Source: Deltaproteobacteria bacterium | Lineage (GTDB): Bacteria > Lernaellota > Lernaellaia > JACKCT01 | Length of the DNA: 64,000 bases | Direction of reading: 5' to 3' | NCBI GenBank assembly: GCA_020845895.1 | Contig: JADLEX010000125.1 | Location: 49,729 to 113,728 of the forward strand | Shown here: piece after piece, positions 22,262-52,646 of the stretch | How positions within the stretch are numbered: position 1 is the stretch's first letter | How the letters are laid out: every line of letters begins with the position of its first letter | Notes under the pieces: generated by a model | Told to the model about the DNA's origin: nothing | What the model saw: the letters and a program-made list of their open reading frames with translations, nothing else | The model's database searches: none | Translations under genes and position numbers: made by a program

Positions 22262-24694
22262 ATGAGTGCCGATGCATCGTTGATTCACACGGCCGAACTG
22301 CTCGAGTGGCCGAAGATCCTCTCGCGTCTCGCGGAGCACGCCATGAGCGCGCCGGGCCGCGAGGCGTGCGAACACCTGCCGTTTTGCGACGACGCCGATT
22401 CAGCCGCGCGTGCGCTGGCCGCCGTCACCGAGGCCGCCGCGCTGCTGCGCGAAGCGCTCGCCCCCGCGCTCGCCGACGTCACCGACATCGCGCCCGATCT
22501 GGAGCGCGCCTCGCTCGGCGCGATGCTGGCGGGCGAGGATCTGATCCGCGTCGCCGACGCACTGCGCGCCGCGCGCCGCACCCGCGACGTCCTCGTCGAA
22601 GAGTGGGAACGCACCCCGCGCCTCGCCGAGATCGCGATGCAGCTTGCCGCCGATGAGCCGCTGGAGATGGACATCTTCGCGGCGATCGACCGCGACGGCG
22701 AGGTGAACGACGCGGCGTCGCCGGAACTGGTCGAGCTGCGCCGCCGCCACCGCCGATTGCACCAGCAGATTCTCGACACGATGAACGAGCTGGTGAAGCA
22801 CGGCGAGTGGGCCGAGTTCCTGCAGGACGACTACTACACGGTTCGCAACGGCCGTTACGTGCTGCTCGTGCGCGTCGAGCGCCAGCACAAGATCGAAGGC
22901 ATCGTCCACGACATCTCGGGCAGCGGCCAGTCGCTCTACATCGAGCCCAAGGAGATCACGAATCTCAACAACGTGCTGCGCGGCACCGAGGTCGCCATTG
23001 CGCAGGAGGTCGCGCGTATCCTGCGCGCACTCACCGCCCGCGTTGCCGCCACGGCGGACGCGATCCACGCGAGCGCCGAAGCCCTCGTCGAAATCGACAT
23101 CGTTTTCGCCAAGGCGCGCTATGCTGCTGCGATCGGCGCGTCCGAGCCCACGCTCGCCCCCGAAGGCCGCATGCGCCTGCGTGCGCTGCGCCATCCGCTG
23201 CTGGTCGGGCGCGACGACGTTCGCGCGGCGGCAAACGTCGAGCGCGTCGTCACGAACGACGTGGAGTTCGCGGCCGGCGCGGGGTGCGTGATCGTCACGG
23301 GGCCGAACACCGGCGGCAAAACGGTGTTGCTCAAGGCCGTCGGGCTCGCGGCGCTGTTCGTGCGCGCGGGGATGCATCCGCCGGTCGCGTTCGATTCCGA
23401 GACCGTGTTCTTCGACCGCGTCTTCGCGGTGATCGGCGATCGCCAGTCGATCGAGGCGGGGCTCTCGACTTTCGCGGCGCATCTCGCCGCGCTGCGGGAG
23501 ATCGCGCGCGACGCCGGGCCGCGCAGCCTCGTGCTGCTCGACGAGATCGGCGAAGGCACCGACCCGCGCCAGGGCGTCGCGCTCTCGATGGCGGTGCTCG
23601 AACACCTCGTCGCGAGCGGCGCGCGCACGCTCGCCACCACGCATTTTTCCGAGCTCGCCGCCCTCGCCACGCAGCGCGCGGGTTTCGTCAACGCGTCGAT
23701 GGAGTTCGACCCGGCGACGATGCGCCCGACCTACCGGCTGCGTCTGGGCATTCCGGGGCGATCCGGCGCGTTCGACGTGGCCGAGCGCATGGGCCTTCCC
23801 GCGCCGATTCTCGCCCGCGCGCGCGAGCTGTACGAAGGCGCGGGCACCGAACTGCAAGCGATCATGGAAGATCTTGATCGTGCGCATCAGGAATGGCGGA
23901 GCAAGACCACCGCCGCCGAACGTGACCGCGCGACCGCGCGTGATCTGGTCGAAAAGCAGCGCGAACTGTTGCGCGATCTGGAAAGCAAGAAGCGCGAACG
24001 CGCGCAAAAAGAACTCGCCGCCGTCGAATCGATGTACCGCGACGCGCGCGAGCGCATCCGCGCGCTGTTAGCCGAACTGAAGGAGCGCCCCACGCGCGCC
24101 GAGGCGCAAAGCGTGAAGGAACAGATCGCCCAGGTCGTCGAGGAGGTCCGCGCGCAGACGCCGCCGCCCGAGGACGCGATCCCCGAACGGATCGGCTACG
24201 TGCCGATTCGCGACTGGTCCGCGATGCACGAGGGCGACGCCGTGTATATCGGCGCGCTGCGCGCGAAGGGAAAGCTCGAAACGCTGCCCGACGCGAGATC
24301 GCAACTGCGCGTGCTGGTGGCTGGCGCGCGCGTCACCATCGACGCAGCCGACGTATTTCACCCCGTCGTGGACGAAGCGCCCGCCGAGGTGCGGGTGCGC
24401 GTGCTGCCGCCGGCGCGCGTCGAGGCCGCGTCGTCGAAGGACCGGTCGCTCGACCTGCGCGGGCAGTACGTCGCCGATGCGCTCGACCACACCGCCGAAT
24501 ACCTCGACCTCGCGTGGCGGTCGCGCTGGCATCAGGTGACGATCATTCACGGCCACGGCACGGGCAGCCTCAAGCGTGAGATCCGCGAGTATCTGCGCGG
24601 CGCGCCGTACGCGCTCGCGTTTCGGCCCGGCGAACGGGGCGAGGGCGGCGACGGCGCGACGGTCGTGGACTTCGATTATTCCGACGAGGCGTGA
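22262..24694 (+). CDS. mutS2: Endonuclease MutS2 (MutS domain V ATPase + C-terminal Smr domain)
   Basis: Walker A VTGPNTGGKTVLLK, and a C-terminal Smr motif LDLRGQ...IIHGHGTGSLKREIREYL. Confidence 0.9.
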   Translation: MSADASLIHTAELLEWPKILSRLAEHAMSAPGREACEHLPFCDDADSAARALAAVTEAAALLREALAPALADVTDIAPDLERASLGAMLAGEDLIRVADALRAARRTRDVLVEEWERTPRLAEIAMQLAADEPLEMDIFAAIDRDGEVNDAASPELVELRRRHRRLHQQILDTMNELVKHGEWAEFLQDDYYTVRNGRYVLLVRVERQHKIEGIVHDISGSGQSLYIEPKEITNLNNVLRGTEVAIAQEVARILRALTARVAATADAIHASAEALVEIDIVFAKARYAAAIGASEPTLAPEGRMRLRALRHPLLVGRDDVRAAANVERVVTNDVEFAAGAGCVIVTGPNTGGKTVLLKAVGLAALFVRAGMHPPVAFDSETVFFDRVFAVIGDRQSIEAGLSTFAAHLAALREIARDAGPRSLVLLDEIGEGTDPRQGVALSMAVLEHLVASGARTLATTHFSELAALATQRAGFVNASMEFDPATMRPTYRLRLGIPGRSGAFDVAERMGLPAPILARARELYEGAGTELQAIMEDLDRAHQEWRSKTTAAERDRATARDLVEKQRELLRDLESKKRERAQKELAAVESMYRDARERIRALLAELKERPTRAEAQSVKEQIAQVVEEVRAQTPPPEDAIPERIGYVPIRDWSAMHEGDAVYIGALRAKGKLETLPDARSQLRVLVAGARVTIDAADVFHPVVDEAPAEVRVRVLPPARVEAASSKDRSLDLRGQYVADALDHTAEYLDLAWRSRWHQVTIIHGHGTGSLKREIREYLRGAPYALAFRPGERGEGGDGATVVDFDYSDEA

Positions 24695-25845
24695 CCGGCG
24701 GCGGCATGCTCGAATGCGCGCACGAGCGCGGCGGCGGCCTCGGCGATTTCGGCGCTCGTCGTTCCCCGTCCCAAGGTCAGTCGAACCGCGCCGAGCGCCG
24801 TGGCCGTGTCGAGTCCCTGCGCCAGCAGGACGTCCGACGGCGACTCGCCGCCCTCGTGACATGCGGAGCCGGTGGACGCGGCGATCTCGGGAGCGCCGGC
24901 GAGAATCGCGCTGCCCCGCGCCCCGGGAAACGACACATTGAGGGTATTGGGCAGCCGCTCGGTTTCGTGCCCGTTCAGTCGAATGCCGGGAATCGCCGTC
25001 CACAACCGCGACCACAAGTCGTCGCGCAGGGCCCGAACGCGGGCGGATTCGCGCTCCATATCCCGCGCGGCGATTTCGCAGGCGTAACCCAGCGCGACGA
25101 TGTACGGCACGTTTTCGGTTCCGGGTCGTAGCCCGCGCTCGTGGCCCGCGCCGAGCAAAAACGGACGCAGCGGCGTCCCGCGACGCACGTACAGCGCGCC
25201 GACGCCTTTGGGGGCGTAACACTTGTGCCCCGCCACGGTCAGCAGATCCACGCCCAGCGCGCGCACGTCGATGGGGATCTTGCCGACGGCCTGCGCCGCG
25301 TCGGAGTGCGTGAGCGCGCCGCGTTCGCGGGCCGCGGCGGCGATTTGGGCGATGGGCATGATCGTGCCGGTCTCGTTGTTGGCCAGCATGATGGTGAAGA
25401 GCAGCGTGTCGTCCCTCAGATCGCCGGGCAGCGCGTCGAGGCGCACCCGACCGTTTGCGTCCACGGCCAGCCGGGTCACGGAGTATCCGGTCGCTTCGAG
25501 CGCGTTGCACGGCCGCGCGGTCGCCGGGTGCTCGACGACGGAGGTGAGGATGTGACGGCGGTCTGGGATCGCCGCCGCAACTCCGCGGATCGCCAGATTG
25601 TTCGACTCGGTGCCCCCCGACGTGAAAACGACCTCGTCCGGATCGCAGCCCAGCAGCGCGGCGACCTGTTCGCGGGCGCGGTCCACGGCACTCTTGGCTC
25701 GTTGTCCAAAGATGTGCCCGCTGGACGGATTGCCGTGGTGATCCCTCAGAAACGGGAGCATCGCGTCGACCACTTCGGGATGAATCGACGTCGTGGCATT
25801 GTGGTCCAGATAGATCGGGTCGCGCTCGGTCATTTGCTTCTCCAT
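24676..25845 (-). CDS. Cysteine desulfurase (NifS/IscS-like; possibly selenocysteine lyase function)
   Basis: IYLDHNATT, the SGHIFG-type motifs, AGHKCYAPKGVGALYVR (PLP Lys) and GSACHEG (active-site Cys). The start ATG overlaps the stop of the upstream DsrE-like gene (TGATG). Confidence 0.85.
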   Translation of the reverse strand: MEKQMTERDPIYLDHNATTSIHPEVVDAMLPFLRDHHGNPSSGHIFGQRAKSAVDRAREQVAALLGCDPDEVVFTSGGTESNNLAIRGVAAAIPDRRHILTSVVEHPATARPCNALEATGYSVTRLAVDANGRVRLDALPGDLRDDTLLFTIMLANNETGTIMPIAQIAAAARERGALTHSDAAQAVGKIPIDVRALGVDLLTVAGHKCYAPKGVGALYVRRGTPLRPFLLGAGHERGLRPGTENVPYIVALGYACEIAARDMERESARVRALRDDLWSRLWTAIPGIRLNGHETERLPNTLNVSFPGARGSAILAGAPEIAASTGSACHEGGESPSDVLLAQGLDTATALGAVRLTLGRGTTSAEIAEAAAALVRAFEHAAAGHASSE

Positions 25846-26198
25846 CAGAAGACCAGCACCTTGTCGGATTCCAGAGTCCATTCCGCCTGCTCTGCGAGCG
25901 TACCCCGCTCGACGCCTTCGATCAGCATTTCGACCCGCAGACCGCGGGCATCCATGCAGCTCCCTCAAAGCCGGACGGGGACGCCCTTTGCGATCAGGGC
26001 TTTGATCATCCGCTCGATGTTGTAATAGCCGTTCGGCGTCTTCTGATCCGCGATCGCCGAGGTGACTGCATCGGCCTGCGCGAAGATGCGCAGCTCAACG
26101 CCGTCGCGCTTGGACAGCTCCATCGCCAGACGCAACGCGTTGTAGGTTCGCTCGTTCCCGTAAGGGGCGTCGTTCAGGGTCAATAACAGGGTCGACAC
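25845..26198 (-). CDS. DsrE/YchN-like sulfur-relay protein, putative selenoprotein: in-frame UGA (25965-25967) at the conserved Cys position, 117 aa read-through product
   Basis: The 77-aa N-terminal ORF (MSTLLLTLNDAPYGNERTYNALRLA...VPVRL) stops at a TGA. The same frame continues without interruption as GSCMDARGLRVEMLIEGVERGTLAEQAEWTLESDKVLVF-stop, which is the typical DsrE/YchN C-terminus. The TGA aligns with the first Cys of the family's conserved VPVKL-C-xx-C region (E. coli YchN, quoted from memory). A candidate SECIS hairpin lies immediately downstream. GTG start with AAGAGGAG RBS. Confidence 0.7.
25925..25957 (-). promoter_or_regulatory. Candidate bacterial SECIS element: hairpin GCAU-GGAU-GCCCGC-[GGUCU]-GCGGGU-CGAA-AUGC starting 10 nt after the UGA
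   Basis: Stem-loop read directly. The apical loop GGUCU is identical to the apical loop of the E. coli fdhF SECIS (as I recall it). The loop lies 21 nt downstream of the UGA, against about 18 nt in fdhF. Confidence 0.6.
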
Positions 26199-26309
26199 TG
26201 ATCTGCTCCTCTTAACAAAGGTGATGTTTTCACCCGCGGCGCGCCACGACGCATCGACCGAAGGAAATCGGGGCGTCGTCCGGCAGGCTGAGCGGGGAGT
26301 CGGCGCGGT

Positions 26310-27467
26310 TCAGAACCATTTGTGCAGCCAGTCTTTTTCGAACAGGACCTTCCCGGCGTGCCAGTGGCGACCGGGAGAATACATCTTTATCTGCGGTACC
26401 GGATCCGCGTAAAAATTTCCGCGACCGAATCCCGCCTTGCCGCCACCGGCTTCGATGAAACATTCGCCGTGACCGTCGAAACGCGAATCGGCGTTTCGTC
26501 CGGCGATTCGGGCGCTGACGTTTTTTGCCACGACTTCCGCCTGCCCGTGGGCGAAAACACCCGCTTTGGGAAGCAGTTTTCCCATTTTCAGGGGAATTCC
26601 GACGAGATCGCCAATGACGTACACATCCGGAAACCGTGTTTCCATCGTCGCCCGATCGACCGTCGCCCATCCGCTGTCGCCCAGCAGACCCGCGCGTTTG
26701 ACAACATCGGGCGCCTGGAAGGGCGGCACATACACCAGCAAGTCGAAGTCCGTCGTTGCCCCGTCCCCGAACACGAGGCTCCGCCCCGACGGATCGGCGG
26801 AAGTCACCTGTCGACCGGGGAAATAGCCGATGCCTTTCGATTCGACCATGCTTCGGACCTGCGCCGAAGCCTCCGGTCCGGCCACGCCCATCGGCCCGGG
26901 TTCCGCGGCGTGGATTTCGACGGTCGTCCGCTCGATGATCCGTCTCTTGCGCGCGTCCGCCTCGAGCAACATCGCCGCCTCATAGGGAGCGGCCGGGCAC
27001 TTGTACGCGGGAGCGGCGGTGAGGACCACGACTTTGCCGCCTCGAAACTCCCGCCAGCGATCACGCAAGGCCTCGGCGCCGTCCAGCGTGCAGAACGTCG
27101 ATCCCGATTCCGCAAGCCCCGCGATGCGCTCCGGCGCGGGGTCCGCGCCGAGGGCGATGATGATGTAATCGGCCGTGATGGTTTCCCCTCCGATGACAAC
27201 CCGTTTGCCGTCCGGATCAATTTCCTCGACATTGCCCCGGATCACCTCAATCCCCCGGCGACGAAGCGCGGTCAGCGGACGGGTGATCGACTCCGCCTCG
27301 CGCGTTCCCATCATCAGCCAGAGAAGCGACGGCCAAAACACGTGCCGCTCGTCCCGATCGACCAGGATGACGCGATGAACGTCACTCACGCGTTTTCGCA
27401 ATTCCACCGCCGCCACAACGCCACCGACGCCGCCGCCAAGGACCAGAATGGTTTGACCCGTTTTCAT
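26310..27467 (-). CDS. sqr: Sulfide:quinone oxidoreductase-like FAD-dependent oxidoreductase
   Basis: N-terminal FAD fold VLGGGVGGVVAA, conserved Cys motifs YKCPAAPYE and GHGECFIEAGG, and a C-terminal amphipathic tail. The start overlaps the regulator stop (ATGA). Confidence 0.8.
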   Translation of the reverse strand: MKTGQTILVLGGGVGGVVAAVELRKRVSDVHRVILVDRDERHVFWPSLLWLMMGTREAESITRPLTALRRRGIEVIRGNVEEIDPDGKRVVIGGETITADYIIIALGADPAPERIAGLAESGSTFCTLDGAEALRDRWREFRGGKVVVLTAAPAYKCPAAPYEAAMLLEADARKRRIIERTTVEIHAAEPGPMGVAGPEASAQVRSMVESKGIGYFPGRQVTSADPSGRSLVFGDGATTDFDLLVYVPPFQAPDVVKRAGLLGDSGWATVDRATMETRFPDVYVIGDLVGIPLKMGKLLPKAGVFAHGQAEVVAKNVSARIAGRNADSRFDGHGECFIEAGGGKAGFGRGNFYADPVPQIKMYSPGRHWHAGKVLFEKDWLHKWF

Positions 27468-28162
27468 GAATTCCCCCTGATCGCGTGTTCGTTTGACTCG
27501 CCGCCGACGGCGATTTGCAACCCGCGCGCCCGCCAGTCCGGAATGCCGTCCTCCAGGCGAACGGCGCGGAAGCCCTTCGCGCGAAGGATCCGGACCGCCT
27601 CCACCGCGAGCACGCAGTAAGGCCCGCGGCAGTACGCGACGATCTTGCGACGTTTGGGCAGTGTGGCCAGGTGCCGAACCAACTCATCGAGCGGAACGCA
27701 CTTCGCGCCCGGAATGTGCCCCGCTTCGAATTCTTCCGTGGGGCGGACGTCGAGCACGGTGACCGAACCGTCGCGCACGCGGCGAATCAGGTCGTCTTGA
27801 TCCACCGGCTCCATCGAATCCCGCTCTTCCAGAAACTCCTTCGTGATCGCGTCGATCTCCGTGAGTCGCGATTCGGCGAGAATCCGCATGGAGCGGTAGA
27901 ATTCGCAGACCTCCGGTCCCGCCAGGCGGTACTCGACAAACAGACCGTGTTTTTCGGCCTCGATCAACCGCGCCGCGCGCAGAACCTGGAGGTGTTGGGA
28001 CGTGTTGGCCACGCTCTGCCCGCTCTCGCGAGCGAGAATCTCAACGGTTCGAGGTCCCTGGCACAGCAGGTCGAGCAGTTCGAGCCTCTTGGGGCTGCAG
28101 ACGGCCCGTCCGACCCGGGCGAACTGCTCATAGATCGCGTCTTTGAACTGTCGGCCCTGCAT
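27464..28162 (-). CDS. ArsR/SmtB-family HTH regulator fused to a rhodanese domain (BigR/SqrR-like persulfide sensor candidate)
   Basis: N-terminal ArsR-type wHTH (LELLDLLCQGPRTVEILA...SQHLQVL), and a C-terminal rhodanese domain with active-site loop CRGPYC. Confidence 0.8.
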   Translation of the reverse strand: MQGRQFKDAIYEQFARVGRAVCSPKRLELLDLLCQGPRTVEILARESGQSVANTSQHLQVLRAARLIEAEKHGLFVEYRLAGPEVCEFYRSMRILAESRLTEIDAITKEFLEERDSMEPVDQDDLIRRVRDGSVTVLDVRPTEEFEAGHIPGAKCVPLDELVRHLATLPKRRKIVAYCRGPYCVLAVEAVRILRAKGFRAVRLEDGIPDWRARGLQIAVGGESNEHAIRGNS

Positions 28163-28184: not shown

Positions 28185-28202
28185 AGTATTCGATTGAATA
28201 CT
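28185..28202. promoter_or_regulatory. Perfect inverted repeat AGTATTC-GATT-GAATACT 23 nt upstream of the ArsR-rhodanese start; candidate operator
   Basis: Read directly. It sits in an AT-rich patch within the divergent promoter region. Confidence 0.45.
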
Positions 28203-40108: not shown

Positions 40109-41218
40109 ATGATAGATGACTTTTTTAAGCAACAGACCGATCAATCGCGGGTTAAAACGGCTATCGTTTCAAAGTATTTTAATGCATGGGCGACGATTAT
40201 GGCGACAAGATCTGCCGCAGACAAAATATGCTATATAGATTTTTTTTCCGGCCCAGGCTTATATGCCGATGGCTCCCTTTCGACTCCTTTAATCGTTACA
40301 TCTATGGTATTAGAAAACCCAAAACTGAAATCAATTGTTCAATTAATATTCAACGACAGCGATAACCATAACATTGAAAAACTTCAAGTCGCTTTACATA
40401 ACGCATCTAATATTAATAGCCTCAAATATCCTCCAGCCTTCTGGAATGTAGACGCCGGACAAAGTCTCGCAGATGAATTTAAGAAAATAAAGATGGCACC
40501 CTCTCTTGTGTTTATCGATCCTTGGGGGTATCGTGGATTAAGCATAGATCTGATTTCTTCTATGACAAAAGACTGGGGGTCTGACGGAATAGTATTTTTC
40601 AATTACAACCGAGTCAATATGGGCTTAAGCAATCCCACTGTTTCTCATCATATGTTAAAATTGTTCGGCCCCGAACGACTACCCGCTGTACTTGAAAAAA
40701 TTCGAGATGCAGGCCCTGATGAACGCGAATTGACGATCGTTGACGAATTTGGAGGTGCGATCGCAGATGCAGTTGGCACGCGTTACGTTTTACCATTCCG
40801 TTTTATCGAAGAAAGTAGGGATAGAACCAGCCATTACTTATATTTTATCAGCAAACACCCATTGGGGTACGTTATCATGAAAAATATAATGGCAAAGGAG
40901 AGTGAACGAGATCAAGATTCAGTGCCTTCATTTGAATACAGCCCCGCCACTCCGAGACAGCAACTGTTATTCCTGTTTGTGCGAAAATTAAATAACCTGA
41001 AAGACGATCTAATCGCAGCATTTGCTGGAAGGACAGCTAAAATGATAGATATCTTTGAAGAGCACCATGTCGGGACTCCGTTTATCGAAAAGAATTACAA
41101 GACAGCCCTGATGGAACTTGAAAAAGAAAATCGAATTTTTGCGGAGCCGAACGCGAAAAATCGAAAGAAGAATACATTTGCAGACCGAGTTGTTGTTTCA
41201 TTTCCGGAGATTCGCTGA
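40109..41218 (+). CDS. tcmP: Three-Cys-motif partner protein TcmP-like; strongly AT-rich gene (~40% GC) with SAM-MTase-like motifs (IDFFSGPG...FIDPWGY)
   Basis: Family assigned from memory of the TIGRFAM 'three-Cys-motif partner protein TcmP'. That family always neighbours a Gp37/Gp68 three-Cys protein, as it does here. The stop overlaps the next start (TGATG). Confidence 0.7.
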
Positions 41219-41937
41219 TGGCTCGATCCGCCATCGAATGGACCGAATCGACTTGGAACCCGGTCACGGGTTGCACGAAGATCAGCGCGGGGTGCAAGCA
41301 CTGCTATGCCGAACGCATGGCGCTGCGTCTACAGGCGATGGGACAGGCCAACTATCGCAACGGTTTTGATGTCACGCTGCACGAGCATGCGCTCGCGATT
41401 CCTTCGCGGCTGAAAAAACCGCAGACGATCTTCGTCAACTCGATGAGCGACCTTTTCCACGTCGACATCCCCGACGCCTACATCGCGCGCGTTTTCGACG
41501 CGATGAACGCCGCTCCCTGGCACACCTATCAGGTGCTGACGAAGCGCGCCGATCGTTTGGAGAAATTGGCGCCGCGCCTCCCGTGGCGTCCGCACATCTG
41601 GATGGGCGTGAGCGTCGAGAACAACGACCATCTGTTTCGCGTAGAGCACCTGCGCGCGACCCGCGCGCACGTGAAGTTCCTGTCGCTCGAACCGCTGCTC
41701 GGCCCGCTGCCCGATCTGGATCTGCGCGGCATCGACTGGGCCATCGTCGGCGGCGAATCCGGCCCCGGTGCGCGGCCGATGGACCCCGCGTGGGTGGTCG
41801 GCATCCGCGATCGTTGCGCGCGCGCCAAGGTGCCGTTCTTCTTCAAGCAGTGGGGCGGCGTGAACAAGAAGCGCGCCGGACGCCTGCTCGACGGACGCAC
41901 CTGGGATGAGATGCCGGAGCGAACCGTCCACGCGTGA
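41218..41937 (+). CDS. Phage Gp37/Gp68-family three-Cys-motif protein (DUF5131)
   Basis: N-terminal [26 protein letters not shown] (C-x6-C-x2-C). C-terminal [10 protein letters not shown]...FFFKQWGG, typical of the family as recalled. Confidence 0.75.
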
Positions 41938-42579: not shown

Positions 42580-42923
42580 CGCCCCTGCCGTCCTCGGCCC
42601 CACCCGTCTCGTCCCGTCGGCTTTCTCCCGAAAACGCCCGCGGATTTACCGCCGAAAAAAAACGCCATTTACTTATCTGAAAAACGATGCTAATGAGCGC
42701 GCACCGACTTCCGACAATGTGTTTGGGTTCGGCAGAGATCCGCAAGGGTTTCGTTTATTCGTTCGGTTCGTTGTCTTCGCGGGAGTTCCCGCGGCGGTCG
42801 GCGAAGTCGGGCGGTAAATGTGCGAGTGACGGTCACAGGGATCGTCCATGCGACGACGGGCGCAGGTTCCCGTCTTGTGACGAGGCGACGTCGATGTTCG
42901 GCGCGCCGAAAAGGCAGATCGAC

Positions 42924-43232
42924 ATGTCCGAGAAAGTGTTTGTGGGTAGCTTGAGCTGGAACACCAACGACGAGAAGCTTCAGGCCGCGTTCGCCCCCTA
43001 CGGCGAAATCACCGAAGCCAAGGTCATCACCGACCGTGACACCGGCCGCTCGCGCGGATTCGGATTCGTTACGTTCGCGAACGCTGAGTCCGCCCAGAAG
43101 GCGATCTCCGCGCTCGACGGCAAGGACCTCGACGGCCGGACCATCAAGGTCAACAAGGCCGAGGACAAGCCGCGCGATCGTGACGGCGGCGGCGGCGGAC
43201 GCTTCGGCGGTGGACGCAACAACCGCTGGTAG
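42924..43232 (+). CDS. RRM-type RNA-binding protein with Gly-rich tail
   Basis: RNP-2 KVFVGSLSW and RNP-1 RGFGFVTF motifs, with a C-terminal GGGGGRFGGGRNNRW. Confidence 0.85.
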   Translation: MSEKVFVGSLSWNTNDEKLQAAFAPYGEITEAKVITDRDTGRSRGFGFVTFANAESAQKAISALDGKDLDGRTIKVNKAEDKPRDRDGGGGGRFGGGRNNRW

Positions 43233-51005: not shown

Positions 51006-51066
51006 CATTTTGTCGGAGTGGTGCGATCTTGCACAAAACTAAACTCTGAGTTAATGTTTGTGCGCG

Positions 51067-51747
51067 ATGCCGAATCGATCTGCACAGACACCCCGACCCG
51101 CTTGGAGCGCGCTATACGAAACGGCGGCGGCGCAGTCGGGCCTCTTCACCGCGGCGCAGGCCGGAACCGCGGGGTACTCGCCTCAACTGATCGCGAAGCA
51201 CGTCGCCGCCGGGCGATTCGTCCGCGTGCGCCGGGCGATCTACCGGTTCGTCCACTTTCCGCCCGGCGAAAACGAAGACCTCGTGGCGATCTGGCTTTGG
51301 TCCGAGTGCACGGGCGCGTTCTCGCACGAAACCGCGCTCTTTCTGCACAACCTGTCGGACGCGATGCCGTCGCGCGCCCACCTCACGCTCCCGACGGCGT
51401 GGTCACATCGACGCCTCCGGGTGCCGACGGGACTCTTGGTGCACCACGCCGATTTGACGAAGTCGGATCTTGCCTGGGTCGGCCCCGTTCCCGTGACGAG
51501 CGCCCGGCGCACCGTCAACGACTGCGCGGTCGCACGTGTCGCGCCGGACATCGTCCGTGACGCGTTCGAGCAGGGCGCGAATCGCGGACTATTTCGGCGC
51601 GATACGCTTCCCGACGTGATCGACTACCTGAAGCGGTTCTATTCGGTCTCGCGCAGTCGCTCGGGACCGCGCTTCGGGTCGTCCGCTTCGAGTCGAAAAG
51701 GGGCGAGGTCGGCGTCAACGCGCATGATCCTCCGGCGTCCGAGATGA
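51067..51747 (+). CDS. abiEi: Type IV TA/abortive-infection antitoxin AbiEi (transcriptional regulator)
   Basis: AbiEi_4-like N-terminus (YETAAAQSGLFTAAQA...LIAKHVAAGRFVRVRRAIYRF). The stop overlaps the abiEii start (ATGA). Confidence 0.7.
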   Translation: MPNRSAQTPRPAWSALYETAAAQSGLFTAAQAGTAGYSPQLIAKHVAAGRFVRVRRAIYRFVHFPPGENEDLVAIWLWSECTGAFSHETALFLHNLSDAMPSRAHLTLPTAWSHRRLRVPTGLLVHHADLTKSDLAWVGPVPVTSARRTVNDCAVARVAPDIVRDAFEQGANRGLFRRDTLPDVIDYLKRFYSVSRSRSGPRFGSSASSRKGARSASTRMILRRPR

Positions 51748-52646
51748 ACGTGAGAACTTACAGGACGCCGGAAGCCTTCAAGATGGCGTTGGAGCAGAAG
51801 CTTCGGTCGCGATCGTCGAGTGGCGGCGATTTCGCGCGCCGTCGCCAACTCCTCGTCTTTGATCGATTCCTCGCGCGCGTAGTCGCAACGATGGGTGACC
51901 GCGTCATTCTCAAGGGCGGACTCGTGATCGAACTCCGGATCGAACGGGCCCGTACCACGAAGGACATCGACCTGAGCGTGATGGGCGATCCGGGCGAGAT
52001 TCTCGAACAACTCCGGGAAGCCGGACGGCTGGACCTCGGCGACTTCATGACATTCGAAATCTCGCCGGACGCCGGGCATCCCGTCATCCAGAACGAAGGG
52101 ATGCGCTATGACGGGCTGCGTTACCGAAGCGAAACGCGCCTTGCCGGAAAGATCTACGGCCAACCCTTTGGAGTCGACGTCGCGTTCGGCGACCCGATCT
52201 TCGGCGAACCCGACGTCGTCCTGACGGAAGATGTGCTGAATTTTGCGGGCGTCGCCCCGCCCGCCGTGCGTCTTTATCCCGTCGAAACGCAGATCGCCGA
52301 AAAACTGCACGCGCTGACCATGCCGAGAGATCTCGAAAATTCGCGCGTGAAGGATCTTCCCGACATCGCTTTGCTCGCTTTGGTGCGGGAGATTGACGAA
52401 ACCGTTCTGCGCAAAGCGCTGGAATTGACCTTCGGGTATCGCGCCACGCACACGATCCCGACCTCCGTTCCCGAGCCGCCCGATTCGTGGGGCACCATCT
52501 ACGCGCGCATGGCGATAGAGGACCAACTCCCTTGGGCTTCCTTCTTCGATCTCGTCTCCGCGGTCGGGCGCTTCATGGATCCGATTCTCTCCGTGAAACT
52601 GCGGCGGCGATGGGATCCCATCCGCTGGGAGTGGTCCGCGAACTGA
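51744..52646 (+). CDS. abiEii: Nucleotidyltransferase toxin AbiEii/AbiGii (DUF1814)
   Basis: VILKGGLVIELRIE...TKDIDL motif region typical of AbiEii nucleotidyltransferases. Confidence 0.75.
   Translation: MNVRTYRTPEAFKMALEQKLRSRSSSGGDFARRRQLLVFDRFLARVVATMGDRVILKGGLVIELRIERARTTKDIDLSVMGDPGEILEQLREAGRLDLGDFMTFEISPDAGHPVIQNEGMRYDGLRYRSETRLAGKIYGQPFGVDVAFGDPIFGEPDVVLTEDVLNFAGVAPPAVRLYPVETQIAEKLHALTMPRDLENSRVKDLPDIALLALVREIDETVLRKALELTFGYRATHTIPTSVPEPPDSWGTIYARMAIEDQLPWASFFDLVSAVGRFMDPILSVKLRRRWDPIRWEWSAN

What the first reader, a model, noticed from the sequence alone, without database searches (positions are those of the whole stretch)
25845..26198. DsrE/YchN-family gene with in-frame UGA at the conserved Cys position plus an fdhF-like SECIS hairpin: probable selenoprotein
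The 77-aa ORF ends VPVRL-TGA. The same frame then reads straight on for 39 more codons, GSCMDARGL...AEWTLESDKVLVF, which is the characteristic C-terminus of YchN/DsrE proteins. The TGA therefore sits where the family has its conserved Cys in the VPVKL-C-xxC region, the classic Cys/Sec exchange position. Ten nt after the UGA is the hairpin GCAU GGAU GCCCGC [GGUCU] GCGGGU CGAA AUGC. Its GGUCU apical loop is the same pentanucleotide loop as the E. coli fdhF SECIS, at comparable distance from the UGA. Codon usage and residue conservation are equal on both sides of the TGA, which argues against a pseudogene. A DsrE-like selenoprotein family has been listed in prokaryotic selenoproteome surveys. This instance and its operon context look uncharacterised.
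Basis: partly seen in the sequence, partly recalled or inferred. Interest (0 to 1): 0.85.

Follow-up and report, generated by a model that had tools for sequence, protein, structure and literature searches.

The report
Selenocysteine-containing YchN/DsrE-like sulfur-relay gene
A small YchN/DsrE-family gene on the minus strand almost certainly reads its internal UGA as selenocysteine at the active-site cysteine position; this selenoprotein family was catalogued in 2005, so the locus is a real but expected new member.

Summary
The gene lies on the minus strand at 25845-26198. It has 77 codons, an in-frame TGA (25965-25967), 39 more codons, then a stop. The read-through product matches Pfam DsrE end to end and E. 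coli YchN (1JX7, E=3e-35). In 37 full-length homologues the TGA column is an invariant Cys of a C-G-x-C motif. That Cys aligns with the active-site Cys78 of TusD and DsrE.

A TGA-specific DNA pattern found at least 116 other genomes with the same TGA and the same 39-codon tail. A hairpin of at least 5 bp, with the Gly-codon GG in its apical loop, occurs in 97 of 107 TGA forms. It occurs in only 8 of 106 TGY (Cys) forms.

Pseudogene, sequencing error and split gene are therefore excluded. selA, selB, selC and selD could not be checked: none lies in the window, and the rest of the MAG was out of reach.

The DsrE-like UxxC selenoprotein family has been in the literature since 2005 with no assigned function. 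The recurrent operon (ArsR-rhodanese, SQR homologue, DsrE, NifS-like) suggests a sulfane-sulfur relay. That function is inferred, not shown.

The parts
25845..26198 (-). YchN/DsrE-like selenoprotein gene: 117 residues including U78, GTG start, TGA stop at 25845-25847
   Evidence: Translation. Pfam DsrE end to end, E=1e-21. YchN 1JX7 E=2.9e-35. No protein record in the NCBI annotation of the source MAG: the flanking genes have consecutive accessions MCC6159808 and MCC6159809.
25965..25967 (-). In-frame UGA, proposed Sec codon (residue 78) of the U-G-S-C motif
   Evidence: Aligned to an invariant Cys in 37 homologues. Aligned to Cys78 of TusD (2D1P) and of DsrE (2HY5). The same codon is TGA in 116 other genomes.
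25925..25957 (-). SECIS-like hairpin: lower stem GCAU/AUGC, 4x4 internal loop, 6-bp upper stem GCCCGC/GCGGGU (25933-25949), apical loop GGUCU (25939-25943, nt +22 to +26 after UGA)
   Evidence: Local MFE fold. An equivalent hairpin is in 97/107 Sec forms and 8/106 Cys forms, MFE -13.1 vs -9.1 kcal/mol, p=3e-16. Covariation at pairs 18-35 and 21-32. A covariance model trained without the window hits 25920-25967 at 31.6 bits, E=5e-6, as the only significant hit in the window.
26206..26213 (-). Ribosome-binding site AAGAGGAG, 7 nt upstream of the GTG start
   Evidence: Read directly from the sequence.
24676..25833 (-). NifS/IscS-type cysteine desulfurase (385 aa). Its ATG lies 11 nt after the DsrE stop and its GGAG overlaps that stop.
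   Evidence: Pfam Aminotran_5 E=1e-76. NCBIfam NifS 460 bits, below the 530 cut-off. Exact match to MCC6159808.1. The start is conserved in L076.
26310..27467 (-). Sulfide:quinone oxidoreductase homologue (type III-like flavoprotein, 385 aa) with both redox Cys kept (YKCPAAPYE and GHGECFIE)
   Evidence: Pfam Pyr_redox_2. Best NCBIfam NF049943 type III SQR selenoprotein subtype, 221 bits, below the 525 cut-off. The 13 closest solved structures are all SQRs, E about 1e-29.
27464..28162 (-). ArsR/SmtB HTH regulator fused to a C-terminal rhodanese domain. Its stop overlaps the SQR start (ATGA).
   Evidence: Pfam HTH_5 plus Rhodanese. NCBIfam HTH_metalloreg 61.8 bits, above the 55 cut-off.
28185..28202 (.). 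Perfect palindrome AGTATTC-N4-GAATACT about 20 nt upstream of the arsR-rhodanese start. Candidate operator; this role is inferred.
   Evidence: the repeat finder. Function not tested.

Best explanation
The gene at 25845-26198 (minus strand) encodes a 117-residue YchN/DsrE-family protein. I propose that its UGA at codon 78 is decoded as selenocysteine.

Decoding mechanism, inferred from the established bacterial pathway. The hairpin at +8 to +40 after the UGA lies inside the coding sequence. Its upper stem is built from the invariant Ala-Arg codons. Its loop holds the GG of the invariant Gly codon. It would recruit SelB.GTP.Sec-tRNA(Sec) to the ribosome, so that Sec is inserted instead of termination. 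The product carries a U-G-S-C motif. The Sec sits where TusD and DsrE carry the persulfide-accepting Cys78.

Proposed function, inferred from gene context. The protein is a sulfane-sulfur (persulfide) carrier. It would accept sulfur from the adjacent SQR homologue and/or the NifS-like desulfurase as a Se-S adduct. Cys81 would act as the resolving or relay residue. The operon would be controlled by an ArsR-rhodanese regulator that senses reactive sulfur.

My confidence that this is a genuine Sec-encoding gene is about 0.9. My confidence in the sulfur-relay function is about 0.5.
For: Shown here:
- The reading frame is intact and DsrE-like on both sides of the TGA.
- The TGA column is an invariant Cys of C-G-x-C in 37 homologues.
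- That column aligns with YchN C-K-T-C and with TusD and DsrE Cys78.
- 116 of 120 genome hits to a TGA-specific pattern are DsrE frames with exactly 39 codons after the TGA.
- The hairpin with GG in its loop is present in 97/107 Sec forms and 8/106 Cys forms, although both encode the same C/U-G-x-C-x-[DE]-A-R-G peptide.
- Stem pairs change on both sides: CG to UA/AU in 19 sequences and GC to AU in 11.
- A covariance model trained on other genomes finds the window's element as its only significant hit, at 31.6 bits. The best of 100 Cys-form loci scores 24.6 bits.
- Against the 80%-identical relative L076, synonymous and non-synonymous codon differences are 20:16 upstream and 8:8 downstream of the TGA. 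The hairpin is kept.
- TGA is the ordinary stop codon in this window, used by about 25 of 35 genes including this gene's own terminal stop.
- 12 of 105 Sec-form loci have selD next door. Eleven of those selD genes carry their own UGA at G-A-G-U-A-C-K-I, so those lineages decode Sec.

Context supporting the function:
- An SQR homologue is nearby in 34/105 Sec-form loci, an ArsR regulator in 47/105, NifS in 13/105 and a rhodanese-dioxygenase fusion in 7/105.
- The Cys-form loci show the same context: SQR 37/120, ArsR 53/120, NifS 16/120.
- The window's flavoprotein keeps both SQR redox cysteines.
Against: - No selA, selB, selD or tRNA-Sec lies in the 64-kb window. The remainder of the MAG could not be examined.
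- No Rfam SECIS family matches.
- Folding a longer 71-nt stretch gives a different structure with an unremarkable z-score of -1.4.
- The window's hairpin lacks the bulged U of the E. coli fdhF SECIS.
- The window's covariance-model score (31.6 bits) is only modestly above the best Cys-form control (24.6 bits), because the model was trained on a different clade.
- The NCBI annotation of the MAG has no protein for this gene.
- There is no experimental evidence of selenium incorporation for any member of this family. The 2026 review lists it as 'predicted with high confidence' (PMC13188914).
- The functional model rests on gene neighbourhood only.
Confidence: 0.85

Rival explanations
1. The protein carries selenium rather than sulfur. 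The NifS-like enzyme would act as a selenocysteine lyase. The DsrE-like protein would carry the released selenium on its U/C-x-x-C site, and the flavoprotein would keep it reduced for delivery to SelD.
For: selD lies beside the Sec-form gene in 12/105 loci. NifS-like genes are adjacent in 13/105 loci. The flavoprotein has a weak hit to TIGR03169, the oxidoreductase domain found fused to SelD: 63 bits against a cut-off of 310. YedF, which has a DsrE-like domain with a CGxC motif, is linked to SelD and Sec lyase by comparative genomics (PMC5322559).
Against: selD adjacency is 0/120 in Cys-form loci, which share the SQR, ArsR and NifS context (Fisher p=7e-5). The selD link therefore looks like co-location of the Sec trait, not a property of the family. 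One caveat: the Cys-form loci are shorter, median 3.5 kb. The protein does not match the YedF model TIGR03527 at E<=1e-3. The flavoprotein scores far better against SQRs, 221 bits and PDB E about 1e-29. No selD lies in this window.
Confidence: 0.2
2. The TGA is a nonsense mutation or a sequencing or assembly error. The gene would then be a pseudogene, or really TGC.
For: The public annotation has no protein here. Sec machinery was not seen in the window.
Against: The same TGA with the same 39-codon tail is found in 116 independent genomes and in the 80%-identical relative L076. A hairpin specific to the TGA forms follows it. The tail is conserved at protein level, with invariant G79, C81, A84, R85 and G95. 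Coding-type GC3 holds on both sides, 0.85 and 0.77. The next gene's ribosome-binding site overlaps the distal stop.
Confidence: 0.03
3. The UGA is read through as another amino acid. Candidates are Cys or Trp by near-cognate or suppressor tRNA, or Gly or Trp under an alternative genetic code.
For: Not directly excluded, because no tRNA set or proteomics is available for this genome.
Against: TGA terminates about 25 of 35 genes in the window, including this one. This rules out a reassigned code. A hairpin specific to the TGA forms, at SECIS distance with G in its loop, is not needed for simple suppression. Neighbouring selD genes in related loci use UGA for Sec at the known Sec/Cys site.
Confidence: 0.04
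4. The gene is split. A 77-residue N-terminal peptide and a separately initiated 36-residue peptide (ATG at 25953-25955, MDARGL...) would assemble non-covalently.
For: An ATG four codons after the TGA opens a 36-codon ORF in the same frame.
Against: That Met is not conserved among the Sec forms, which have S, C, Q, A, V, L and others at that position. No ribosome-binding site precedes it. The split would separate U/C78 from C81 and delete the catalytic residue.
Confidence: 0.02

Closest known systems
DsrE-like selenoprotein family (UxxC motif, PF02635), listed in the prokaryotic selenoproteome surveys of Gladyshev and co-workers (PMC1088965, 2005; PMC1794560, 2006, Desulfovibrio vulgaris; PMC1976440, 2007; review PMC13188914, 2026)
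   Same: Same Pfam family. Same UxxC redox motif with Sec at the first position. Cys-containing homologues exist. A SECIS-like hairpin follows the UGA with G in its apical loop.
   Different: I could not retrieve the published example sequences (for example WP_014524487.1) to confirm they belong to the same YchN-like subfamily. The published lists give no operon context, no function and no experimental validation. This instance comes from an uncultured 'Deltaproteobacteria bacterium' MAG and has no protein record there.
E. coli YchN (PDB 1JX7), a conserved protein of unknown function
   Same: End-to-end homology, E=2.9e-35. Same length, 117 aa. Same position of the C-x-x-C motif (VKL-C-KT-C in YchN, VRL-U-GS-C here).
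   Different: YchN has Cys, not Sec, and K-T rather than G-S between the two thiols. From my own knowledge, E. coli ychN is not in an SQR/ArsR/NifS operon; I did not test this here.
TusD (E. coli TusBCD) and DsrE (Allochromatium vinosum DsrEFH) sulfur-relay subunits
   Same: Same fold family. The Sec aligns with the persulfide-carrying active-site Cys78 of both. That Cys78 is the active site is established knowledge, not tested here.
   Different: Only distant similarity: TIGR03012 gives 27 bits against a cut-off of 89. No TusB/C or DsrF/H partners are nearby. TusD and DsrE lack the second Cys of the CxxC motif.
Staphylococcus aureus cst operon (CstR, the sulfurtransferase CstA with a TusD-like domain, the persulfide dioxygenase-rhodanese CstB, and SQR). 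Recalled from my own knowledge.
   Same: The same functional parts list: a persulfide-responsive repressor, an SQR, a rhodanese module and a DsrE/TusD-fold sulfur carrier. Rhodanese-dioxygenase fusions occur in 7 of the related loci.
   Different: The regulator family differs (ArsR-rhodanese fusion here, CsoR-type CstR there). The DsrE-fold protein stands alone here and carries Sec. A cysteine desulfurase lies inside the operon. The resemblance is by analogy only and was not tested.
E. coli fdhF SECIS element
   Same: A hairpin inside the coding sequence directly after the UGA. The string GGUCUGC is shared in and after the apical loop. The loop begins +22 after the UGA here and +19 in fdhF. 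The fdhF sequence was verified.
   Different: In fdhF the loop is a GGUC tetraloop closed by A-U, with a bulged U in the upper stem. Here it is a GGUCU pentaloop closed by C-G with no bulge and a 4x4 internal loop below. Related Sec forms use other loops, such as CGGGCU, GGUC and CGUGGCUU.

Membership tests
Bacterial selenoprotein gene (UGA recoded to Sec) | In-frame UGA at a position occupied by Cys in homologues | tested here: met
   Invariant Cys in 37 of 37 full-length homologues. It corresponds to Cys78 of TusD and DsrE.
Bacterial selenoprotein gene (UGA recoded to Sec) | Protein-level conservation continues downstream of the UGA to a distal stop | tested here: met
   39 codons match the Pfam DsrE C-terminus. 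The identical 39-codon tail is in 116 TGA-form genomes. The ratio of synonymous to non-synonymous change is similar on both sides of the TGA against L076.
Bacterial selenoprotein gene (UGA recoded to Sec) | SECIS hairpin immediately 3' of the UGA with G in a small apical loop. From memory, bSECISearch places the loop about 16-37 nt after the UGA. | tested here: met
   Hairpin at +8 to +40, loop GGUCU at +22 to +26, -14.6 kcal/mol. Specific to TGA forms, 97/107 vs 8/106. Covariation at two pairs. bSECISearch itself was not available.
Bacterial selenoprotein gene (UGA recoded to Sec) | selA, selB, selC (tRNA-Sec) and selD present in the same genome | not testable with these tools
   None in the 64-kb window. 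The source contig is 113.7 kb, from an NCBI MAG that is absent from the gene-position index. Related Sec-form loci carry selD.
Bacterial selenoprotein gene (UGA recoded to Sec) | Selenium demonstrably incorporated (75Se labelling or mass spectrometry) | not testable with these tools
   Needs an experiment. According to PMC13188914, no member of this family has been validated.
DsrE/DsrF-like family, YchN subfamily | Significant full-length match to PF02635 and to YchN | tested here: met
   77.7 bits against a cut-off of 22.7, profile positions 5-116 of 116. 1JX7 E=2.9e-35 over residues 2-116.
DsrE/DsrF-like family, YchN subfamily | C-x-x-C motif at the YchN position | tested here: met
   U-G-S-C aligned to YchN C-K-T-C and to the homologues' C-G-x-C. 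The first Cys is replaced by Sec.
TusD / DsrE subunit of a TusBCD or DsrEFH heterohexamer | Score above the TusD/DsrE equivalog cut-off, with TusB/C or DsrF/H partner genes | tested here: not met
   TIGR03012 gives 27.4 bits against 89.25. NF001237 gives 19.8 against 92. Pfam hits on the neighbouring genes show no second DsrE-family gene.
YedF (TIGR03527) selenium-metabolism protein | SirA/TusA domain fused to a DsrE-like domain, with a match to TIGR03527 | tested here: not met
   No TIGR03527 hit at E<=1e-3 and no TusA domain.
'UGSC-containing protein' selenoprotein family (NF041046) | Match to NF041046 | tested here: not met
   The window protein has the tetrapeptide U-G-S-C but gives no NF041046 hit at E<=1e-3. 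The shared motif is coincidental.
E. coli fdhF-type SECIS | GGUC tetraloop closed by A-U plus a bulged U in the upper stem | tested here: not met
   GGUCU pentaloop closed by C-G, with no bulge (against the fdhF sequence). It resembles the fdhF SECIS but is not the same architecture.

The most novel reading that the evidence does not exclude
The Sec-form YchN/DsrE-like protein may be the dedicated acceptor of sulfane sulfur from a type III-like SQR and from the co-transcribed NifS-like desulfurase. It would carry the sulfur as a Se-S (selenenyl-persulfide) intermediate resolved by Cys81. This would be a selenium-based persulfide relay, under an ArsR-rhodanese sensor. It would also give the long-uncharacterised YchN family, including E. 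coli YchN, its first function. A variant of this reading is that the same site shuttles selenium from a Sec lyase to SelD.
Probability: 0.3. Interest if true: 0.6.

Novelty: new member of a known kind. Interest (0 to 1): 0.35.

Why it matters
As a selenoprotein call, this corrects a gap in the public annotation. The gene has no protein record in its MAG. It also adds one instance to a family that is already catalogued.

Three results are more useful than the call itself.
- The Sec form is widespread. At least 116 species-level genomes in several phyla carry it, most of them Chloroflexota.
- The SECIS is built on the invariant Ala-Arg-Gly codons of the family. This gives a clean contrast between Sec and Cys forms.
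- Sec and Cys forms share a recurrent neighbourhood: an ArsR or ArsR-rhodanese regulator, an SQR homologue and a NifS-like desulfurase.

That neighbourhood turns the unknown function of YchN-type proteins into a testable hypothesis: they accept persulfide sulfur in sulfide detoxification.

Tried and rejected
- **Locating the source contig.** Exact-product look-ups found nothing for the 77-aa ORF, the SQR homologue or SerRS. A cluster look-up did identify the source as an NCBI 'Deltaproteobacteria bacterium' MAG with a 113,728-bp contig. No tool could fetch the rest of that genome, so selA, selB, selC and selD remain unchecked.
- **Rfam.** No hit at gathering thresholds on the whole window, and only noise at E<=10 on 25840-26000. 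Rfam has no model for this SECIS type.
- **tRNA scans.** No tRNA-Sec in the window or in 116 related loci.
- **Pfam scan of about 40 window ORFs.** No SelA, SelB or SelD.
- **Other TGA-interrupted coding frames in the window.** Three further candidates appeared (41935+, 1714-, 38820-). I did not study them individually. The first follows a complete DUF5131 match, so it is probably two adjacent same-frame genes. The other two I judged to be adjacency or noise without a test.
- **Fold of a 71-nt stretch.** It gave a different, non-significant structure. I replaced it with local folds and the Sec-versus-Cys comparison.
- **Literature searches.** Searches for YchN with persulfide, DsrE or sulfur found nothing. 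The search for 'TsoY' returned only unrelated papers.
- **YedF and the 'UGSC-containing protein' family as homes for this protein.** Rejected, with no NCBIfam hit.
- **selD adjacency as evidence for a selenium-trafficking function.** Down-weighted, because it is absent from the Cys-form loci that otherwise share the context.
Full report

Yes. The feature lies on the minus strand.
- A GTG at 26198 follows the ribosome-binding site AAGAGGAG (26206-26213).
- It opens 77 codons that end ...KGVPVRL.
- The next codon is TGA (25965-25967).
- The same frame then reads GSCMDARGLRVEMLIEGVERGTLAEQAEWTLESDKVLVF, ending at TGA (25845-25847).

With Cys placed at the TGA, the 117-residue product matches Pfam DsrE (PF02635). 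The match runs from profile position 5 to 116 of 116, at 77.7 bits and E=1e-21. The homology therefore crosses the TGA without a break. GC3 is coding-like on both sides, 0.85 and 0.77. A pattern that encodes TGA-G-x-C-x-[DE]-A-R-G-x7-E-G occurs once in the window and in 0 of 100 shuffles.

**2. What sits at the TGA column in relatives?**

A search of 5.8 billion proteins returned about 2,500 homologues. The best are 116-119 residues long and 55-65% identical. In an alignment of 37 of them, the TGA column is an invariant Cys. It is the first Cys of a C-G-x-C motif and is followed by invariant A-R-G.

A profile of that alignment matches E. coli YchN (PDB 1JX7) end to end, E=2.9e-35. YchN has C-K-T-C at the same place. 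The profile also matches TusD (2D1P) and DsrE (2HY5) more distantly. Counting residues in those alignments puts the window's Sec on Cys78 of both. From established knowledge, Cys78 is the persulfide-carrying active-site residue of those sulfur-relay proteins. The window protein is thus a YchN-type protein with U-G-S-C in place of C-x-x-C.

**3. Do other genomes carry TGA there?**

I scanned one genome per GTDB species for the same pattern, with TGA fixed. Of the 120 hits, 116 are true DsrE frames by HMM. Nearly all have exactly 39 codons after the TGA. They come mainly from Chloroflexota (Anaerolineae, Dehalococcoidia). Actinomycetota, Acidobacteriota, Bacillota, Zixibacteria, Fidelibacterota and others are also represented.

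The nearest relative is L076, an uncultured bacterium. It is about 80% identical in DNA and syntenic with the window. It has the same TGA. Its synonymous to non-synonymous codon differences are 20:16 before the TGA and 8:8 after it. A pseudogene or a base-calling error cannot explain this pattern.

**4. Is the hairpin a SECIS?**

Folded alone, a 71-nt stretch prefers a different structure and is not remarkable, z=-1.4. It has a 4-bp lower stem, a 4x4 internal loop, a 6-bp upper stem and the loop GGUCU, at -14.6 kcal/mol.

The decisive test is comparative. I fetched 106 distinct Cys-form genes from metagenomes with the same pattern, but with TGY instead of TGA. These encode the same peptide motif.

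| Measure | TGA (Sec) forms | TGY (Cys) forms |
|---|---|---|
| Uninterrupted stem of at least 5 bp enclosing the Gly-codon GG in its apical loop | 97 of 107 | 8 of 106 |
| Mean folding energy, nt +10 to +48 (kcal/mol) | -13.1 | -9.1 |

The energy difference gives Mann-Whitney p=3e-16.

The loop starts 19-23 nt after the UGA. In E. coli fdhF it starts at +19. I recalled the fdhF SECIS from memory and confirmed it at 100% identity in 5,419 E. coli genomes.

In a 61-sequence ungapped alignment, two stem pairs change on both sides:
- Pair 21-32 changes from C-G to U-A or A-U in 19 sequences.
- Pair 18-35 changes from G-C to A-U in 11 sequences.

Column 21 is the synonymous third base of the Ala codon. 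Column 32 is the second base of a variable codon. The protein sequence therefore changes to keep the stem. This alignment was selected for the stem register, so its percent-paired figure is biased. The double changes are not affected by that selection.

A covariance model built without the window finds 25920-25967 as its only significant hit in 64 kb, at 31.6 bits and E=5e-6. The best of 100 Cys-form loci scores 24.6 bits.

Loop sequences differ between clades: CGGGCU, GGUC, GGUCU and CGUGGCUU. The window's hairpin has no bulged U. It is therefore SECIS-like, but not of the fdhF architecture.

**5. Rivals to Sec decoding**

- *Alternative genetic code.* Excluded. TGA ends about 25 of 35 genes here, including this one.
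- *Re-initiation at the ATG four codons after the TGA.* Unlikely. That Met is not conserved among the Sec forms and no ribosome-binding site precedes it.
- *Absence of Sec machinery.* This is the remaining gap. The window has no tRNA, no SelA/SelB/SelD domains among about 40 ORFs and no second selenoprotein candidate.

The source is an NCBI MAG labelled 'Deltaproteobacteria bacterium', with a contig of 113,728 bp. I could not reach the rest of it.

Indirect support exists. In 12 of 105 related Sec-form loci, selD lies beside the gene. Eleven of those selD genes carry their own UGA at G-A-G-U-A-C-K-I. Deltaproteobacteria are the phylum richest in selenoproteins (PMC1794560).

**6. Surroundings and likely function**

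The gene sits in a four-gene minus-strand unit:
- An ArsR-type HTH regulator fused to a rhodanese domain (27464-28162). Its stop overlaps the next gene's start.
- A flavoprotein (26310-27467).
- The DsrE-like gene (25845-26198).
- A NifS/IscS-type cysteine desulfurase (24676-25833). Its ATG lies 11 nt after the DsrE stop.

These assignments rest.

The flavoprotein's closest solved structures are all sulfide:quinone oxidoreductases, E about 1e-29. Both redox cysteines are kept. Its best NCBIfam model is the type III SQR selenoprotein subtype, but it scores below that model's cut-off.

The neighbourhood recurs:

| Neighbour | Sec-form loci (of 105) | Cys-form loci (of 120) |
|---|---|---|
| ArsR regulator | 47 | 53 |
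| SQR homologue | 34 | 37 |
| NifS-like desulfurase | 13 | 16 |
| Rhodanese-dioxygenase fusion | 7 | 6 |
| selD | 12 | 0 |
| TsoY selenoprotein | 7 | 0 |

The ArsR row counts small ArsR regulators in the Sec-form loci. In the Cys-form loci it counts hits to the window's ArsR-rhodanese query. The difference in selD adjacency gives Fisher p=7e-5.

I read this as follows. The family acts in handling reactive sulfur: it would accept sulfane sulfur from SQR and/or the desulfurase. The selD link reflects clustering of Sec-trait genes. A selenium-trafficking role is the main functional rival, at about 0.2. All of this is inference from gene context.

**7. Comparison with what is known**

A DsrE-like selenoprotein family (PF02635, UxxC motif) was reported from the Sargasso Sea data in 2005, with a predicted SECIS (PMC1088965). 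It was found in Desulfovibrio vulgaris (PMC1794560) and in Olavius symbionts (PMC1976440). A 2026 review lists it under 'predicted with high confidence' and says its function is uncharacterised (PMC13188914).

The window gene meets every sequence-level criterion I could test for that family. It is not any of the following:
- TusD or DsrE proper, because it scores below their cut-offs and has no partner subunits.
- YedF.
- The 'UGSC-containing protein' family NF041046.

**8. Verdict**

The spacer is 7 nt, not ten. The loop is not the same as the fdhF loop.

The finding is a new, unannotated member of a known selenoprotein family, not a new kind of system. Two modest additions come from this work: the evidence of a SECIS specific to Sec forms, and the conserved SQR/ArsR/NifS context. 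The context gives the YchN family a testable function.

Interest is about 0.35.

Noticed in passing
window 25845-26198 and flanking genes: The NCBI annotation of the source MAG gives consecutive protein accessions to the cysteine desulfurase (MCC6159808.1) and the flavoprotein (MCC6159809.1). Neither the 77-aa nor a full-length DsrE product is in the protein collection. The selenoprotein gene is therefore unannotated or marked as a pseudogene in the public record.
   Followed up: partly
window 28185-28202: A perfect AT-rich palindrome, AGTATTC-N4-GAATACT, lies about 20 nt upstream of the ArsR-rhodanese start in an otherwise GC-rich region. An overlapping ATTCAA/TTGAAT repeat is also present. 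It is a candidate operator of the regulator.
   Followed up: partly
L018 2250-3203, L095, L044, L069, L037, L093, L087, L091, L089, L073, L071 (and L112): selD lies next to the Sec-form DsrE-like gene in 12 of 105 loci. In 11 of them selD has its own in-frame TGA at G-A-G-U-A-C-K-I, so SelD is itself a selenoprotein there. None of 120 Cys-form loci has selD nearby.
   Followed up: yes
L048 2340-3323; also L008, L014, L024, L029, L080, L081: A membrane protein matching NCBIfam 'selenoprotein TsoY' (NF047643, 409 bits against a cut-off of 250) neighbours the Sec-form DsrE-like gene in 7 loci, mostly Actinomycetota. This points to small clusters of several selenoprotein genes.
   Followed up: no
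window 26310-27467 (-): The SQR homologue has H-G-E-C at the site where the recently described type III SQR selenoprotein subtype (NF049943) has HxxU. It is the Cys counterpart of another selenoprotein family, encoded directly upstream of a Sec-containing gene.
   Followed up: partly
L082 4324-5445 and 6 other loci: A rhodanese domain fused to a metallo-beta-lactamase-fold domain lies beside the DsrE-like gene in 7 Sec-form and 6 Cys-form loci. It resembles a persulfide dioxygenase of the Blh/CstB type. This fits a sulfide-detoxification module.
   Followed up: partly
window 51055-52646 (+): An AbiEi antitoxin and AbiEii nucleotidyltransferase toxin pair (type IV toxin-antitoxin or abortive-infection module).
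   Followed up: no
window 41122-41937 (+) and L078 (1-3175): A DUF5131 gene is followed in the same frame, after a single TGA, by a 213-aa ORF with no Pfam match. The DUF5131 profile is complete before the stop, so these are probably just adjacent genes. L078, a Chloroflexota MAG, holds several DNA segments 70-77% identical to this gene.
   Followed up: partly
window 42681-43232 (+): A bacterial protein with a eukaryote-type RNA recognition motif (RRM_1, E=5e-25) lies upstream of serS.
   Followed up: no
window 24676-24694: The 3' ends of the convergent mutS2-like gene (22262-24694, +) and the NifS-like gene (24676-25833, -) overlap by 19 nt, leaving no room for an intergenic terminator.
   Followed up: no
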